A model generated the notes under the pieces. It made no database searches. It saw only the letters and a list, made by a program, of their open reading frames with translations, and was not told the origin of the DNA. Shown here in pieces: positions 1,290 through 6,368 of a stretch of DNA of 12,639 bases. The position numbers and the translations under genes are program-made. The DNA is taken from positions 1 to 12,639 of IMG/VR virus record IMGVR_UViG_2740892258_000015; one strand, written 5' to 3'. The stretch comes from a virus. Taxonomy: Duplodnaviria; Heunggongvirae; Uroviricota; Caudoviricetes. The first letter of the stretch is position 1. The number at the start of each line of letters is the position of its first letter.

Positions 1290-1772
1290 CTATCTGGTCA
1301 AAGTGTCGTACTGTTTTTCGCAGACTCTTCCGGCTTCGGCTGCCCGGTCAGCATACTCTGCCAGTTGTCTGTTTCTCTCGAGAGATTTGCTGAGCACGTC
1401 GGCAAGCAAAACTCCGGTGTCTGCGGCTGACGACCCAGCGCCGACAATGGCGTTATACTGCCTGAGCTGCTCACGGATGGCAAAGAGTTGTTGCTGCAAC
1501 CGGCCAGCGCTAGCGGCAGCATCAAGAGCATCATTGCGCGCCTGGTCGATCCTCTGCTGAGCTTCACGTTCATTGGTCACTTTCTCCTGTTCGTAGTACT
1601 GACGAACTTTGTCTTCTTCGGCTTTGCTGTCTTCTTCCGCCTGAGCATACCCGGCATCGTACTGGCGACTGCCGTGTATATTCCAGGCAACCACTCCTGA
1701 TATGACCAGAACAGCAAGCACTGCCACGATAAGAAACTGTTTCCAGTATGCTTTTACGAATGCCCAGATCAT
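1290..1772 (-). CDS. Rz-like inner-membrane spanin (i-spanin)
   Basis: N-terminal TM segment ([18 protein letters not shown]) followed by a long charged coiled-coil region with a C-terminal Cys. Its ATG (1772-1770) overlaps the endolysin stop as ATGA. It is the last gene of the lysis cassette. Confidence 0.7.
1298..1573 (-). CDS. Rz1-like outer-membrane lipoprotein spanin (o-spanin), embedded in the Rz gene in a different frame
   Basis: Lies wholly inside the Rz ORF in a shifted frame. RBS AGGAGA 9 nt upstream of the ATG at 1573. Lipoprotein signal with charged n-region and lipobox LAGC ([26 protein letters not shown]). Predicted mature part is proline-containing. Confidence 0.6.
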   Translation of the reverse strand: MNVKLSRGSTRRAMMLLMLPLALAGCSNNSLPSVSSSGSITPLSALGRQPQTPEFCLPTCSANLSRETDNWQSMLTGQPKPEESAKNSTTL

Positions 1773-2398
1773 ACCGCCAGCACCTTACTGGCAGTGATGT
1801 ACCGCGCTCGCCGGTCGTCGATGCCGTTCCGGCCACCATTGATAATCAGAGTTACACGTGCAATATCGCCGGTATACTTCATGCATCCTTTGCTGGCGAA
1901 GAACCACGCCGCGCTACGAGCCGCATATTCGTCCTGCGCCAGCAGTTCAGGGCTCTCCAGCAGGTCAACCTTCAGACCGTTTCCGCAATCACGATAGTTA
2001 TTCAAACCGGTAATCTGGATAAGTCCGCGCCCTCGGTAATTCCAGCCATCACCAGGGGCATTGTTCCCCATGCGTTTGCTGTATACCAGATTTGCGATCG
2101 CGCGCTGGCGCTCAAGTGGCAATGGTGGTTCACCAGCACGGCGCCCCAGTGCATTAGCCTGCCCCTGAGTGAGACGCCCAGCCCGAACGAAGTTAGCCAG
2201 TCCGCTGACACTGTAGTTGAAATTCTCCTGCAACCTGGTGAAGCCCCCAGACTCATGCCCGACTTGAGCAATAAACATTGCCTGATCTTCTGCTTTGCTG
2301 ATACCAAACTCTTTCATCGCAGAAGTTATATGCGAGAACCAGCGTGCGGCCAGTGCCTCGCTGATACCAGCAGCTCGCTGGAATTGTTTAATCTCCAT
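1769..2398 (-). CDS. Endolysin, glycoside hydrolase family 19 (chitinase-like lysozyme)
   Basis: Internal ATG at 2398 with RBS GAGGT 6 nt upstream; the longer track ORF to 2563 has no RBS. Motifs QVGHESGGF and [11 protein letters not shown] are characteristic of GH19 phage endolysins (from memory). Flanked by holin and spanin genes. Confidence 0.8.
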
Positions 2399-2696
2399 GT
2401 TTAGACCTCGATACTTTAAAAATTTGAACGACGTTACCGCGCGTTTTAATAACCGCAGCCAGCATGACAGCGTTGATAATGACCTCAGATAAATCCACAG
2501 CCATTGGCGTACGTAACCAGATTGCATAGGCGACTCGAACAGGAATACTGGCCGCAGCAACAATCAGGAAATAAGCAAGCCATCCTCCCCACCTTCGATG
2601 TTGAGAGCCGTTACGCCGGAATGTGACAACGCGAATTGCTATGCCAGTGCAAATAACTGCATTAGTGATAAGCAAAAAAAACTCATGCGTTACCAT
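2388..2696 (-). CDS. Small membrane protein in the lysis cassette (possible second holin or antiholin)
   Basis: Three hydrophobic segments and a basic C-terminus. ATG at 2696 with a GGAG-containing upstream sequence. Overlaps the holin stop by 14 bp and the endolysin start by 11 bp. No family recognised. Confidence 0.4.
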
Positions 2697-3087
2697 CGTC
2701 TTTTCTCCCCGGAATTAACTCGCGTGGATTATCGGAACGGTGATAGAGCCATATACCAATACGCACAGCGACAATTGCTGACACGAATGCGCCTGCAGAG
2801 AAAACAATCCCTTTTTCAAAAGAGTCCTGCGTGATGGTAGGGATCAGGCTGGCTATGCCGATAAGAATTGATGCTGCTGGTTTGTAAAAGAGAAGGCCGC
2901 AAAGAAAGCTGAGCATCGACAGGAGCACCCGGCGACGGATGGGGTACTCTACTGCAGAGGTAACAAAAATTACCGCCCCAGCCAAAGCCCCTAAAGCAAC
3001 CTCCGGAGGGACACCTGCAATAACTGCAGCAAGAGAACCAAAACTAAGCAACTGATTTAATTGCTCACTTGTTACTTGAGCAGACAT
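2683..3087 (-). CDS. Putative holin (multi-TM membrane protein with charged C-terminus)
   Basis: ATG at 3087 with RBS AGGAGA. Four to five hydrophobic helices and a charged tail ([19 protein letters not shown]). First gene of the lysis cassette, directly upstream of the endolysin. Confidence 0.55.
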   Translation of the reverse strand: MSAQVTSEQLNQLLSFGSLAAVIAGVPPEVALGALAGAVIFVTSAVEYPIRRRVLLSMLSFLCGLLFYKPAASILIGIASLIPTITQDSFEKGIVFSAGAFVSAIVAVRIGIWLYHRSDNPRELIPGRKDDGNA

Positions 3088-3368
3088 ACTTTCTCCTGTT
3101 TACTATCTATAAGCCAGTCAATTATTGATGACTAAACCCGCATAGTAAACCATATATGAATCATTATTGTTCCATATCATATATCTCAATAAAAGTACTA
3201 ATGATTTTACAGAACGAGCCAGCAGAGTGGGGGCAGTTGTACAGGAACCATAGACTTAATTTTGTATTTAATAATGCTATGGTGTAATAAACCTGAACAT
3301 GTATTTAAAATACGTACTGATTCATGATAGAATTCAAAGATAACTTTTCACCAACTCCGTTTTTGATA

Positions 3369-3395
3369 CCCGCAATATTTTGCGGGCTTTTTTTT
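3369..3395 (+). terminator. Intrinsic terminator oriented for the plus strand, inside the regulatory region upstream of the lysis genes
   Basis: Stem cccgcaa (3369-3375), loop tatt, stem ttgcggg (3380-3386), then a T8 run (3388-3395). On the minus strand the hairpin is followed by UAUCAAAAA, so it is weak in that direction. Confidence 0.5.
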
Positions 3396-3425
3396 AACGT
3401 TCTTCCAGAGACTGAACCCGCTCTT

Positions 3426-3878
3426 TTATCTTATCCATTTCTCTGCGCTGCCATGCTGCCTCGATATAGAATAAGAGATCAGGTCTGACCCCTCTTGGGC
3501 CACCAGATTTTTTGCAGCTTCTATAGCAGCATCCACCCCCTGCGCCCGTACTTCAGCCAAGAAAGCGTCGGTGGCTGTGGTTTCGATATCGTTAATTTCA
3601 GGAAGAATCTCTTCCCATGTAGCGATATCGCCATTCAAATGCCATCCGGCAATTCCACTGGAGTTATCCGCAACACTGCGAACGGCTTCAATAGTTTCAT
3701 GCATTGCCTCATTCTCCGCTGCCAGCGCATTAGCACGCACCAGTTGCACTTCCAGTTGCGTTGCCAAATCGCTGATCAGCTTTGCCACACTGCGCATATC
3801 AACGGCACCACATTCTGCTTTCAGTTCCGAAGCCATCTCATGCCCGGCGGCAACTAACCCTTTGATATTACTTTCCAT
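3426..3878 (-). CDS. Hypothetical strongly acidic protein (150 aa) in the position normally held by antiterminator Q
   Basis: RBS GAGGG 5 nt upstream of the ATG at 3878. By my count about 25 Asp+Glu against 11 Lys+Arg. Only one Cys, so no zinc finger. No family recognised. Confidence 0.5.
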   Translation of the reverse strand: MESNIKGLVAAGHEMASELKAECGAVDMRSVAKLISDLATQLEVQLVRANALAAENEAMHETIEAVRSVADNSSGIAGWHLNGDIATWEEILPEINDIETTATDAFLAEVRAQGVDAAIEAAKNLVAQEGSDLISYSISRQHGSAEKWIR

Positions 3879-3939
3879 CTTTACCCTCGCTTATCCACAT
3901 AACTTATTGATTACATTGATAACTAAAAAGATCGTCGAT

Positions 3940-4287
3940 TCAGAACTCTTCGATGTTCCAGCCACCACCTGCTTTCTTTGGCTTAACCGTTACCCCGATG
4001 ATTCGGAACGGATACTGATCTGCGGCGACTTTGGTTTTCACTCTGGCGTCATCGGTCCAGAATCCCCCTTTCACTTCGTGCAGTTCCATCTCGCCGGTGG
4101 CGAGCATCACAGCAAAATCTGGCGTATAGAACGTGTTGTCAGCTAACCGCAGCTTGATACCCTCAAATCGATACCAGACGATTTCTCCTGCACGTTTACG
4201 CAGCTCAAGGTGCTGGCAATACGCAGATTCTGTTTTGTTCATCTGGCCTGTTTTGAGTCGACCAAGAGCCTGCATCTGTTTTCTCAT
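3940..4287 (-). CDS. PD-(D/E)xK-type nuclease, DUF1064-like (nin-region resolvase-like protein)
   Basis: RBS AAGGGG upstream of the ATG at 4287. Motif YTPDF...ELHEVKG fits a PD...(D/E)xK catalytic core. Size and position (between P and the late region) match nin-region nucleases of lambdoid phages. Family name is from memory. Confidence 0.55.
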   Translation of the reverse strand: MRKQMQALGRLKTGQMNKTESAYCQHLELRKRAGEIVWYRFEGIKLRLADNTFYTPDFAVMLATGEMELHEVKGGFWTDDARVKTKVAADQYPFRIIGVTVKPKKAGGGWNIEEF

Positions 4288-4290
4288 GAT

Positions 4291-4368
4291 TTACCCCTTA
4301 GGTAATTAAAAACCACATAAGACACGAAATCAATAGATTTTAGAATATTTTATTACCTCTAAGGTAAT
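4291..4368 (-). promoter_or_regulatory. Operator-flanked promoter for the nuclease/acidic-protein operon
   Basis: Two TTACC-N5-GGTAA palindromes at 4291-4305 and 4354-4368. On the minus strand: -35 TTGATT (4328-4333), 17-bp spacer, -10 TTTAAT (4305-4310) overlapping the proximal operator. Same layout as the promoter at 7396-7472. Confidence 0.45.
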
Positions 4369-4369
4369 T

Positions 4370-4389
4370 ATCGAGACGTAAAAAAATGC
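4370..4389 (-). terminator. Weak candidate terminator after the P-like gene
   Basis: Short GC stem gcgc/gcgc (4378-4389) followed on the minus strand by a U7 tract (plus-strand A run 4370-4376). The stem is only 4 bp. Confidence 0.25.
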
Positions 4390-4404
4390 GCTATCGCGCT
4401 GGTA

Positions 4405-5205
4405 TTACTTGATAAATCCTGACGCCTTTCCCCGCCTGTATTCCTCCATCAGCCACTGCGCCGGTGTTATTCCCCCAAGGGTGGCGGCGTTAGGCATGCA
4501 CCCGAAACTTCGCCCTGGTGGATGGTAAACGTCTCTCCCTGTGTCCGGAGGCGTACTCATGGGTTCTGGCTTTGCCTGTATGCTGATCACCGGATCGGGT
4601 ATCTGCTGTCCGGAAGCCACCTTTTTCGCCCAATCATCGAGCAGCCTGCGCGCGTGTTTCTCAACCTCAATCTCGCTAAGCTGGCGCTGATACATTGCAC
4701 GGCGGGTATCACATACGACCCAGTACATAACCGGATGTCGCCACGGGAATCTTTCGGGACCACCAGGATATAAACTTTTTTCCTTGCTGTACCGGTGAAA
4801 CTCCGCCATCACATCGTCAATGGTGACGCCAAGAACCATCTTGCTGTCTTTACACCACTTGATGAATTGCCCTGGCGACGGCCAGAACGGAGACTCACTG
4901 GCGCGGGCGTGGCGCATACCAGCAGAAACCTGTTCACGGGTTCGGATCCCCCCTTCGGCAAACGCAGCAATCCACTGCTGTTTTGCAGCAACTTCCTGCT
5001 CTGGCGTCTTCAGGTTGGTTACCACTGCCGCCGGAAACAGTTGTTTCAGCTGTTTGAAAAGGGCATCAACAAGCCTCTCTGCTGACATGTTCACCACGTT
5101 GTCATTGTTGGTGTACTGATGCTCATAACCTGACATGCGAGAAAGGGCTTCTCCGTCACGGTTTTGTATCGCGGTAAAAACGTTGTTCACAAGAAATCCT
5201 CCCAT
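4405..5205 (-). CDS. Replication protein P-like (DnaB helicase loader)
   Basis: Segment LFKQLKQLFPAA..QQWIAAFAEGGIRTREQVSAGMRHAR..PFWPSPGQFIKWCKD parallels lambda P (..TFPAS..RRQWVLAFRENGITTMEQVNAGMRVARRQNRPFLPSPGQFVAWCRE, recalled from memory). Start overlaps the O-like gene by 19 bp. Confidence 0.8.
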   Translation of the reverse strand: MGGFLVNNVFTAIQNRDGEALSRMSGYEHQYTNNDNVVNMSAERLVDALFKQLKQLFPAAVVTNLKTPEQEVAAKQQWIAAFAEGGIRTREQVSAGMRHARASESPFWPSPGQFIKWCKDSKMVLGVTIDDVMAEFHRYSKEKSLYPGGPERFPWRHPVMYWVVCDTRRAMYQRQLSEIEVEKHARRLLDDWAKKVASGQQIPDPVISIQAKPEPMSTPPDTGRDVYHPPGRSFGCMPNAATLGGITPAQWLMEEYRRGKASGFIK

Positions 5206-6218: not shown

Positions 6219-6320
6219 GGTAAGCCCTGTTATTAGTATTGGGATTACGGTCATTTTGTGCTGACACAAAAAAAAGATCAACCAGATTTGGTTTTTTATT
6301 ACCTTTGAGGTACGAATAGA

Positions 6321-6346
6321 TATGAAAAGACCGCCGGATGGCGGTC
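6321..6346 (-). terminator. Candidate terminator after the Cro-like gene (tR1-like)
   Basis: Stem gaccgcc (6329-6335), loop ggat, stem ggcggtc (6340-6346); followed on the minus strand by UUUUC. Confidence 0.4.
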
Positions 6347-6368
6347 TACAGAGGGTTGTGGCTGGATA

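What the first reader, a model, noticed from the sequence alone, without database searches (positions are those of the whole stretch)
3426..4287. Nuclease plus strongly acidic protein pair under its own repressor-controlled promoter
A small PD-(D/E)xK nuclease (motif PDF...ELHEVKG) is followed by a 150-aa protein with roughly 25 acidic against 11 basic residues by my count. Both have good RBSs and sit behind an operator-flanked promoter. Highly acidic small phage proteins are often DNA mimics that block host restriction or other nucleic-acid-targeting defences (Ocr and ArdA are the textbook cases). Paired with a nuclease this could be an anti-defence or nuclease-regulator module. I recognise no family for the acidic protein.
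Basis: inference. Interest (0 to 1): 0.55.

Follow-up and report, generated by a model that had tools for sequence, protein, structure and literature searches.

The report
Prophage nuclease plus truncated EaE gene
This is an ordinary early operon of a decayed phiV10/epsilon15-type E. coli prophage: a T7-endonuclease-I-like nuclease followed by a member of the long-known, highly variable phage EaE family, whose copy here was cut short by a 28-kb deletion.

Summary
There is a 115-aa PD-(D/E)XK nuclease and a 150-aa ORF with 25 acidic and 11 basic residues. Both have good ribosome-binding sites, and both sit behind a promoter flanked by two repressor-type palindromes.

The interpretation needs three corrections.

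1. The 150-aa ORF is a deletion product. A 28,076-bp deletion has its junction at window 3492|3493. It fuses codons 1-128 of a 173-aa gene to 22 out-of-frame codons from the 3' end of the tailspike gene. This exact protein occurs on one public contig only.

2. The protein does belong to a known family: phage EaE, as in P22 EaE. The family is extremely mosaic. One member, HK446 gp27 (Oad2), was reported in 2026 to inhibit the P2 OLD defence protein by binding it directly.

3. The predicted fold is a helical coiled coil plus bundle, with no Ocr or ArdA similarity. Only 17% of residues are acidic. A DNA-mimic role is therefore not supported, although an anti-defence role by protein binding remains plausible.

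The nuclease is DUF1064. Its active site aligns with that of T7 endonuclease I, so it is probably a branched-DNA or junction-resolving enzyme. The two genes also occur apart from each other in other phages, so they are neighbours and not an obligate pair. Interest is low to moderate.

The parts
4380..4402 (-). Terminator-like hairpin (GCGCGATAGCGC) plus T-run, directly after the stop codon of replication gene P. It separates the upstream replication transcript from the nuclease operon.
   Evidence: Read. Invariant in all 64 distinct upstream sequences from related viral contigs. Annotated as a putative rho-independent terminator in phiV10. The stem is only 4 bp, so the tool's scan did not list it.
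4352..4368 (-). Distal operator, a perfect palindrome ATTACCT-TAG-AGGTAAT, 18 nt upstream of the -35 hexamer.
   Evidence: 0 mismatches. In 64 variant sequences the half-sites are kept while the central 3 nt vary freely.
4305..4333 (-). Putative sigma-70 promoter: TTGATT (4328-4333), 17-nt spacer, TTTAAT (4305-4310).
   Evidence: Read. The -35 hexamer and TTTTTAATTACC are near-invariant in the 64 variants. The geometry matches the leftward early promoter at 7395-7473. Not called by the strict scan.
4290..4306 (-). Proximal operator (ATTACCTAAGGGGTAAA). It overlaps the -10 hexamer, the likely transcription start and the ribosome-binding site of the nuclease gene.
   Evidence: 2 mismatches. Half-sites are conserved and the spacer is variable. 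It lies 62 bp from the distal operator, the same spacing as the 7395/7457 pair.
3940..4287 (-). DUF1064 nuclease, 115 aa, pI 9.4. PD-(D/E)XK type, T7 endonuclease I-like, with E20, D57, E71 and K73.
   Evidence: Pfam PF06356, 26.4 bits against a cut-off of 24.7. phrog_190 'Holliday junction resolvase', 1e-43. hhalign against T7 endonuclease I: probability 85.6%, E 5.6e-6, with YTPDF and E-x-K aligned. Conserved residues.
3879..3939 (-). 61-nt intergenic spacer holding the ribosome-binding site of the EaE-like gene and a perfect DnaA box (TTATCCACA, plus strand, 3891-3899).
   Evidence: Identical in 63 of 80 related loci; the DnaA box is kept in 75 of 80.
3493..3878 (-). Codons 1-128 of an EaE-like gene: N-terminal coiled-coil module, middle module, and the ATDAFLAEVRAQ linker. 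Identical to the 173-aa protein WP_000445438 (P0009).
   Evidence: phrog_492, 1e-45. The family profile also scores a P22-like EaE (100 bits) and Oad2 (76 bits).
3492..3493 (.). Deletion junction. 28,076 bp present in intact prophages are missing: the rest of the EaE-like gene, the small accessory genes, and the terminase, head and tail genes with most of the tailspike.
   Evidence: Window 2600-3492 equals APEC O18 1636524-1637416, and window 3493-4420 equals 1665493-1666420, both at 100% identity. The base-by-base view shows no microhomology. Deletion size.
3426..3492 (-). The last 22 codons and the stop of the 150-aa ORF. They are an out-of-frame reading of the 3' end of the endosialidase tailspike gene and are not native protein sequence.
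   Evidence: The true tailspike C-terminus is encoded in another frame at 3394-3492.

Best explanation
The window holds a phiV10/epsilon15-type (Uetakevirus) prophage beside yfgH/yfgI in E. coli. It has lost 28 kb of structural genes.

The finding is one of this phage's early transcription units. A terminator ends the replication transcript. A promoter bracketed by two copies of the phage repressor's palindromic operator then drives two genes.

(1) The first gene is a DUF1064 nuclease of the T7 endonuclease I type. It most likely cuts branched replication and recombination intermediates (Holliday junctions, forks). This would match the role of Rap or RusA downstream of the replication genes in lambdoid phages, or of gene 3 in T7.

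(2) The second gene is an EaE-family accessory gene. EaE proteins are built from a coiled-coil N-terminal module, a short conserved linker (ATDAFLAEVRAQ) and an interchangeable C-terminal module. They end in RKGGNQ, whose codons carry the ribosome-binding site and the overlapping start of the next gene. Their most likely job is to bind and neutralise a host protein, such as a defence factor, as shown for the family member Oad2 against P2 OLD. They are unlikely to mimic DNA.

In this strain the deletion removed the C-terminal module and tail of the EaE-like gene and added 22 unrelated residues. The copy here is therefore probably a non-functional remnant. It should also be silent under the intact repressor.

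Shown: gene identities, the deletion, operator enrichment and conservation, family membership, and independent occurrence of the two genes. Inferred: nuclease substrate, repressor binding, the anti-defence role, and loss of function.
For: - Prophage identity and context.
- Deletion chimera. The exact 150-aa protein is on one contig only.
- Nuclease: Pfam and PHROG matches, conserved E20/D57/E71/K73, and the alignment to the T7 endonuclease I active site. DUF1064 follows the replication genes in Klebsiella, Burkholderia and Acinetobacter phages. The literature predicts a PD-(D/E)XK fold and a recombination context (PMC1189080, PMC3424549).
- EaE family: annotations, the pairwise match to HK446 gp27 at E 3e-9 with shared motifs, and profile scores.
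- Mosaicism: the modules at residues 1-67, 48-120 and 95-173 recur separately in 646 representative clusters. Of 80 downstream proteins next to a nuclease at least 96% identical, 74 are distinct, with lengths of 136-363 aa.
- The tail encodes AAGGAGG plus an overlapping GTG start.
- Oad2 biochemistry.
- Operators. The repressor gene is intact and identical to the copy in the undeleted prophage.
Against: - No experiment exists for DUF1064 or for this EaE variant.
- The AlphaFold model of the nuclease was poor (pLDDT 56), so the fold could not be confirmed structurally.
- The window's protein is only 27% identical to Oad2. The Oad2 paper reports that even a homologue 54% identical to Oad2 does not inhibit OLD, so no specific target can be inferred.
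- Natural EaE variants as short as 136 aa exist, so the truncated protein might keep some activity.
- Binding of the 194-aa helix-turn-helix protein to the palindromes is inferred.
- The deletion is seen in a single draft assembly and has not been checked against reads.
Confidence: 0.7

Rival explanations
1. The acidic protein is a DNA mimic of the Ocr or ArdA kind. It would block type I restriction or other DNA-binding defences by occupying their DNA-binding groove.
For: Net negative charge (-14 for the 150-aa ORF, -17 for the intact protein; pI 4.4-4.5). All 80 variants at this locus are acidic (pI 4.35-5.57). The gene is early and repressor-controlled, in a hypervariable accessory position.
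Against: No sequence or fold similarity to Ocr, ArdA or any solved structure. Acidic residues are 17% of the protein, equal to or below two unrelated proteins in the window, both at 19%. From memory, Ocr is close to 30% acidic. The characterised relative Oad2 works by direct protein binding to OLD.
Confidence: 0.07
2. The two genes form a functional pair. The acidic protein would be an inhibitor, chaperone or specificity factor of the DUF1064 nuclease, in the manner of a toxin-antitoxin or nuclease-immunity pair.
For: The genes are adjacent and co-transcribed, with a nearly invariant 61-nt spacer. The charges are opposite (pI 9.4 against 4.5). The N-terminal 55 residues of the acidic protein are invariant next to this nuclease.
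Against: DUF1064 occurs with no EaE-like gene within 2.5 kb in Pseudomonas F116, Burkholderia Bcep176, Vibrio X29 and Acinetobacter AbIPP1. EaE-like genes sit by int/xis, far from any DUF1064, in HK446 and in a P22-like phage; the HK97 homologue (gp37) lies at the matching position by its coordinates. A dedicated partner of a nuclease that is at least 96% conserved would not be expected to swap its C-terminal half freely (74 of 80 variants distinct).
Confidence: 0.08
3. The EaE-like protein is a developmental regulator like lambda Ea22, biasing the lysis-lysogeny decision through a host partner. It would not be an anti-defence factor.
For: Same overall design as Ea22: a short N-terminus, a coiled coil and a variable C-terminal domain (PMC10834534). 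According to the OLD paper, EaE modules are found fused to EaD/Ea22 proteins. An 'ead/Ea22-like' gene lies a few genes downstream in intact relatives.
Against: No NCBIfam or Pfam hit links this protein to Ea22. The solved Ea22 C-terminal domain did not appear in the fold searches. The gene sits in the rightward operon after the replication genes, not in the exo-xis region.
Confidence: 0.12

Closest known systems
P22 EaE / HK446 gp27 (Oad2) family of lambdoid and P22-like phages
   Same: They share the LAAEN coiled-coil stretch, the (T)PATDAFLAEVRAQ linker and, in the intact allele, the QLRKGGNQ tail. The family profile scores a P22-like EaE at 100 bits and Oad2 at 76 bits. C-terminal modules are exchanged between them: the EaE of phage SE10 carries exactly the C-module of the 144-aa variant P0053. 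All are acidic (Oad2 pI 4.8).
   Different: The N-terminal module differs (MESNIKGL... against MKQMTLIEMDG...). The genome position differs: after the replication genes and DUF1064 here, by int/xis in HK446 and P22-like phages. Identity to Oad2 is only 27%. The window's copy lacks the C-terminal module and tail.
T7 endonuclease I (gene 3), a junction-resolving PD-(D/E)XK enzyme
   Same: The active-site segment aligns at 40% identity over 53 columns. D57, E71 and K73 here correspond to D55, E65 and K67 of T7 (T7 residue numbers from memory). Both are small, basic phage proteins.
   Different: Shorter (115 aa against 149 aa). Only the catalytic core aligns. Activity on junctions is untested. It is encoded by temperate phages directly after the replication genes.
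Lambda Rap (NinG) and RusA in the nin region of lambdoid phages
   Same: The same genomic role is expected: a structure-specific nuclease encoded just downstream of the replication genes, in a phage that also encodes RecT-type recombination functions (window 8146-9845).
   Different: The folds and families are unrelated. This is an analogy of position only, an inference from established lambdoid genome organisation.
Ocr (T7 gp0.3) and ArdA DNA mimics
   Same: Small, early-expressed phage proteins with a net negative charge.
   Different: No sequence or fold similarity, and a much lower density of acidic residues.

Membership tests
DUF1064 (Pfam PF06356) | Match to the family profile above the curated gathering score | tested here: met
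   26.4 bits against a cut-off of 24.7, residues 18-93. Close homologues carry PF06356 and are named DUF1064.
DUF1064 (Pfam PF06356) | PD-(D/E)XK catalytic signature: N-terminal helix Glu, then PD, then E-x-K | tested here: met
   E20, E71 and K73 are invariant and D57 is kept in at least 90% of 27 homologues. These residues align with the T7 endonuclease I catalytic segment.
DUF1064 (Pfam PF06356) | Restriction-endonuclease-like alpha/beta fold | tested here: inconclusive
   The AlphaFold model has pLDDT 56.5. The secondary-structure order in residues 20-78 (a helix, then strands) fits the expected core, but Foldseek gave no significant match.
DUF1064 (Pfam PF06356) | Structure-specific nuclease activity | not testable with these tools
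   I found no biochemical study of any DUF1064 protein. The 'Holliday junction resolvase' label in PHROGs is an annotation.
EaE family (P22 EaE, HK446 Oad2) | Significant sequence or profile similarity to named EaE proteins | tested here: met
   BLASTP against HK446 gp27 gave E 3e-9. The profile scores a P22-like EaE at 100 bits and Oad2 at 76 bits. Relatives are annotated 'eae-like'.
EaE family (P22 EaE, HK446 Oad2) | Conserved linker motif ATDAFLAEVRAQ | tested here: met
   Present at residues 102-113, and nearly invariant in 61 diverse members.
EaE family (P22 EaE, HK446 Oad2) | C-terminal module ending in the LRKGGNQ tail, coupled to the next gene | tested here: not met
   Lost through the deletion in the window's copy. 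Present in the intact allele P0009 and in most of the 80 related loci.
EaE family (P22 EaE, HK446 Oad2) | Inhibition of a defence protein by direct binding, as for Oad2 against P2 OLD | not testable with these tools
   Known only for HK446 gp27. A homologue 54% identical to it is inactive.
DNA-mimic anti-restriction proteins (Ocr, ArdA) | Sequence or fold similarity to Ocr or ArdA | tested here: not met
DNA-mimic anti-restriction proteins (Ocr, ArdA) | Very high density of surface carboxylates imitating the DNA backbone | tested here: inconclusive
   17% D+E and a net charge of -14 to -17. This is not exceptional within the window. The surface pattern was not analysed.
Nuclease-inhibitor or toxin-antitoxin type gene pair | Conserved co-occurrence of the two genes across lineages | tested here: not met
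   Each gene occurs without the other in several phages.
Repressor-controlled early promoter of phiV10/epsilon15-type phages | Operators of the same sequence as those in the immunity region, placed over the promoter | tested here: met
   6 palindromes against 0.31 expected. The geometry matches the leftward early promoter. Half-sites are conserved and the spacer is free in 64 variants.
Repressor-controlled early promoter of phiV10/epsilon15-type phages | Binding by the phage repressor and repression in a lysogen | not testable with these tools
   Inference only. The 194-aa helix-turn-helix repressor gene is intact.

The most novel reading that the evidence does not exclude
The EaE-like gene after DUF1064 may be a modular anti-defence cassette. 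A constant coiled-coil N-module would provide oligomerisation. Interchangeable C-terminal modules would each neutralise a different host immunity protein, as Oad2 does for OLD. Exchange would occur by recombination at the conserved ATDAFLAEVRAQ linker and at the RKGGNQ/ribosome-binding-site joint. The 74 distinct variants seen next to a nearly identical nuclease would then be a catalogue of inhibitors. The phage would control the cassette directly through its own repressor, via a dedicated terminator-operator-promoter unit.
Probability: 0.3. Interest if true: 0.55.

Novelty: new member of a known kind. Interest (0 to 1): 0.27.

Why it matters
For this window it matters little. The acidic ORF is a truncated remnant in a dead prophage, and both genes belong to families that are already named.

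The wider locus has some value. EaE-family genes have been an unexplained, very common and very variable part of enterobacterial phages since the P22 era. The recent Oad2 result suggests they may be anti-defence proteins. The phiV10-type locus offers dozens of natural C-terminal variants in a constant context for screening. DUF1064 is widespread in temperate phages of many genera and has never been tested biochemically.

Tried and rejected
- Sequence searches of both proteins against PDB chains found nothing.
- PADLOC and NCBIfam scans found nothing relevant.
- Structure prediction of the nuclease from a shallow alignment (all sequences at least 79% identical) gave pLDDT 56. Its fold search was therefore meaningless.
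- I checked whether SPP1 G44P, a characterised phage junction resolvase, is a DUF1064 protein. It is RusA-like, so it gives no biochemical precedent.
- I looked for a published description of the operators in phiV10/epsilon15 phages. The library held none, and the original genome papers are not in it.
- An alternative promoter, TCGATA-16-TAAAAT, was rejected because its -35 hexamer is not conserved among the 64 variants.

Full report
**Context.** The window is a prophage of the phiV10/epsilon15 type (genus Uetakevirus) in E. coli. Host genes yfgH and yfgI occupy 1-1071. The integrase is at 11389-12639. Between them lie the lysis genes, the two genes of the finding, replication genes P and O, cro-like and cI-like regulators, and a RecT/exonuclease recombination module. 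The source is contig CVOH01000128.1 of assembly GCA_001245225.1.

**Observation.**
- The 115-aa ORF (3940-4287, minus strand) carries TPDF...ELHEVKG.
- The 150-aa ORF (3426-3878, minus strand) has exactly 25 D+E and 11 K+R, with pI 4.5.
- Both have Shine-Dalgarno sequences at proper spacing.
- The 17-bp palindrome ATTACCT-N3-AGGTAAT occurs six times in the window against 0.31 expected, and none of 200 shuffles reached six. Two copies bracket TTGATT-17-TTTAAT upstream of the nuclease gene. Two more bracket the leftward early promoter at 7395-7473 with the same 62-bp spacing and the same distances to the -35 hexamer. Further copies lie between cI and cro and upstream of the replication genes.
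- In 64 distinct versions of the nuclease promoter from related viral contigs, the operator half-sites, the -35 hexamer, the -10 region and the upstream terminator are conserved. The three central bases of the distal operator vary freely. That pattern is what a protein-binding palindrome shows.
- 'Own repressor-controlled promoter' is therefore well supported, although repressor binding itself is inferred.

**The deletion.**
- Window 2600-3492 is 100% identical to E. coli APEC O18 1636524-1637416, which holds the holins and the 3' end of an endosialidase tailspike gene.
- Window 3493-4420 is 100% identical to APEC O18 1665493-1666420, which holds an EaE-like gene, DUF1064 and the end of P.
- The 28,076 bp between these segments, holding all virion genes, are absent from the window.
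- The junction has no microhomology and lies inside the acidic ORF.
- Codons 1-128 are those of a 173-aa protein (WP_000445438 = P0009).
- The last 22 codons read the final part of the tailspike gene in the wrong frame.
- None of 5,426 complete E. coli genomes has the junction. The exact 150-aa protein occurs on a single contig in the large protein collection.
- The '150-aa acidic protein' is therefore a strain-specific truncation product in a defective prophage.

**The acidic protein's family.**
- Relatives are annotated 'eae-like' in phiV10 and many other phages.
- The family is large: more than 6,000 hits and 646 clusters at 50% identity.
- It is strikingly mosaic. Residues 1-67, 48-120 and 95-173 recur independently in proteins of 66 to 363 aa.
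- Next to a nuclease that is at least 96% identical, 74 of 80 downstream proteins differ from each other. Nearly all start MESNIKGLV, and most end in LRKGGNQ.
- The tail codons CGC AAA GGA GGC AAC CAG TGA hold a perfect ribosome-binding site and an overlapping GTG start for the next gene. The tail is probably conserved as a DNA-level joint.
- A profile of the family scores a P22-like EaE protein at 100 bits and HK446 gp27 at 76 bits. The P22-like EaE carries exactly the C-terminal module of one phiV10-type variant.
- A July 2026 preprint (10.64898/2026.07.10.737580) names HK446 gp27 Oad2. It shows that Oad2 binds the P2 OLD defence nuclease and blocks its activation. It also notes the relation to P22 EaE and the inactivity of a homologue 54% identical to Oad2.
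- Anti-defence by protein binding is therefore a reasonable working model for the family. Nothing can be said about the target of this variant, which is only 27% identical to Oad2.

**The nuclease.**
- It passes the Pfam DUF1064 threshold and matches phrog_190 at 1e-43.
- A profile of 27 homologues aligns to T7 endonuclease I with 85.6% probability. YTPDF and E-x-K are in register, so D57, E71 and K73 correspond to the T7 catalytic residues.
- Published fold-recognition work placed DUF1064 in the PD-(D/E)XK superfamily near T7 endonuclease I and TnsA, and noted its association with recombination and replication genes.
- In phages of Klebsiella, Burkholderia and Acinetobacter it again follows the replication genes. 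In Pseudomonas F116 it lies upstream of the terminase genes, among unannotated genes.
- The likely role is cutting branched DNA during replication, recombination and packaging. No DUF1064 enzyme has been characterised in the papers I could search.
- My structure prediction for it was too poor to use.

**Are the two genes a unit?** They are co-transcribed here, but they are not an obligate pair. DUF1064 occurs with no EaE-like gene nearby in F116, Bcep176, X29 and AbIPP1. EaE-like genes sit by int/xis, with no DUF1064 nearby, in HK446 and P22-like phages, and the HK97 homologue (gp37) lies at the matching position by its coordinates. A hypervariable partner for a nearly invariant nuclease also argues against a regulator role.

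**Verdict.** The nuclease and the repressor control are right. 'Anti-defence' is plausible through the EaE/Oad2 relationship. The DNA-mimic mechanism, the 'no family' statement and the nuclease-regulator idea are not supported. Both genes belong to known families, so this is a new, damaged member of a known kind, of low to moderate interest.

Noticed in passing
window 3492|3493, with consequences across 1290-3492: A 28,076-bp internal deletion removed all head, tail and packaging genes of the prophage. It left the lysis cassette (1290-3087) and the last 32 codons of an endosialidase (K1-capsule-specific) tailspike gene at 3394-3492. It is seen in one draft assembly only.
   Followed up: yes
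window 3891-3899 (+), inside the 3879-3939 spacer: The only perfect DnaA box (TTATCCACA) in the window lies in the 61-nt spacer between the nuclease and EaE-like genes. The spacer is identical in 63 of 80 related loci, which is far more conserved than the promoter region upstream. Its function is unknown; it could be regulatory or origin-related.
   Followed up: partly
window 6298-6347, 4290-4402 and 7395-7473: The early region is organised as repeated terminator-operator-promoter units. A strong terminator (6328-6347, minus strand) after cro is followed by an operator (6298-6314) and a TTGATC -35 hexamer ahead of a 66-aa ORF and the O and P genes. The same layout precedes the nuclease. This suggests direct repressor control of several separate early transcripts, not an antitermination cascade. 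I could not check whether this has been described for epsilon15 or phiV10.
   Followed up: partly
L004 2840-2900 (intact allele); absent from the window: The conserved protein tail RKGGNQ of EaE-like genes is encoded by AAAGGAGG...CAGTGA. This is the ribosome-binding site and the overlapping GTG start of the next gene. It looks like a fixed joint at which modules are exchanged.
   Followed up: partly
window 10533-11194 (+): An MT-A70-type DNA methyltransferase gene appears split into two overlapping ORFs (10533-11003 and 10874-11194), probably by a frameshift. This would be another sign of prophage decay.
   Followed up: no
proteins P0002-P0008: Many database copies of the EaE-like protein are 'partial' and end at contig ends of about 113 kb. 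Assemblies seem to break inside this gene, probably because its modules are repeated in several prophages of one genome.
   Followed up: no
window 6754-7338 (+): The 194-aa repressor gives only faint helix-turn-helix matches in NCBIfam, to RstR and HigA in separate halves of the protein, and phiV10's annotation notes two helix-turn-helix motifs. It is identical to the copy in the undeleted APEC O18 prophage. The remnant should therefore still confer immunity and keep the nuclease operon silent.
   Followed up: partly
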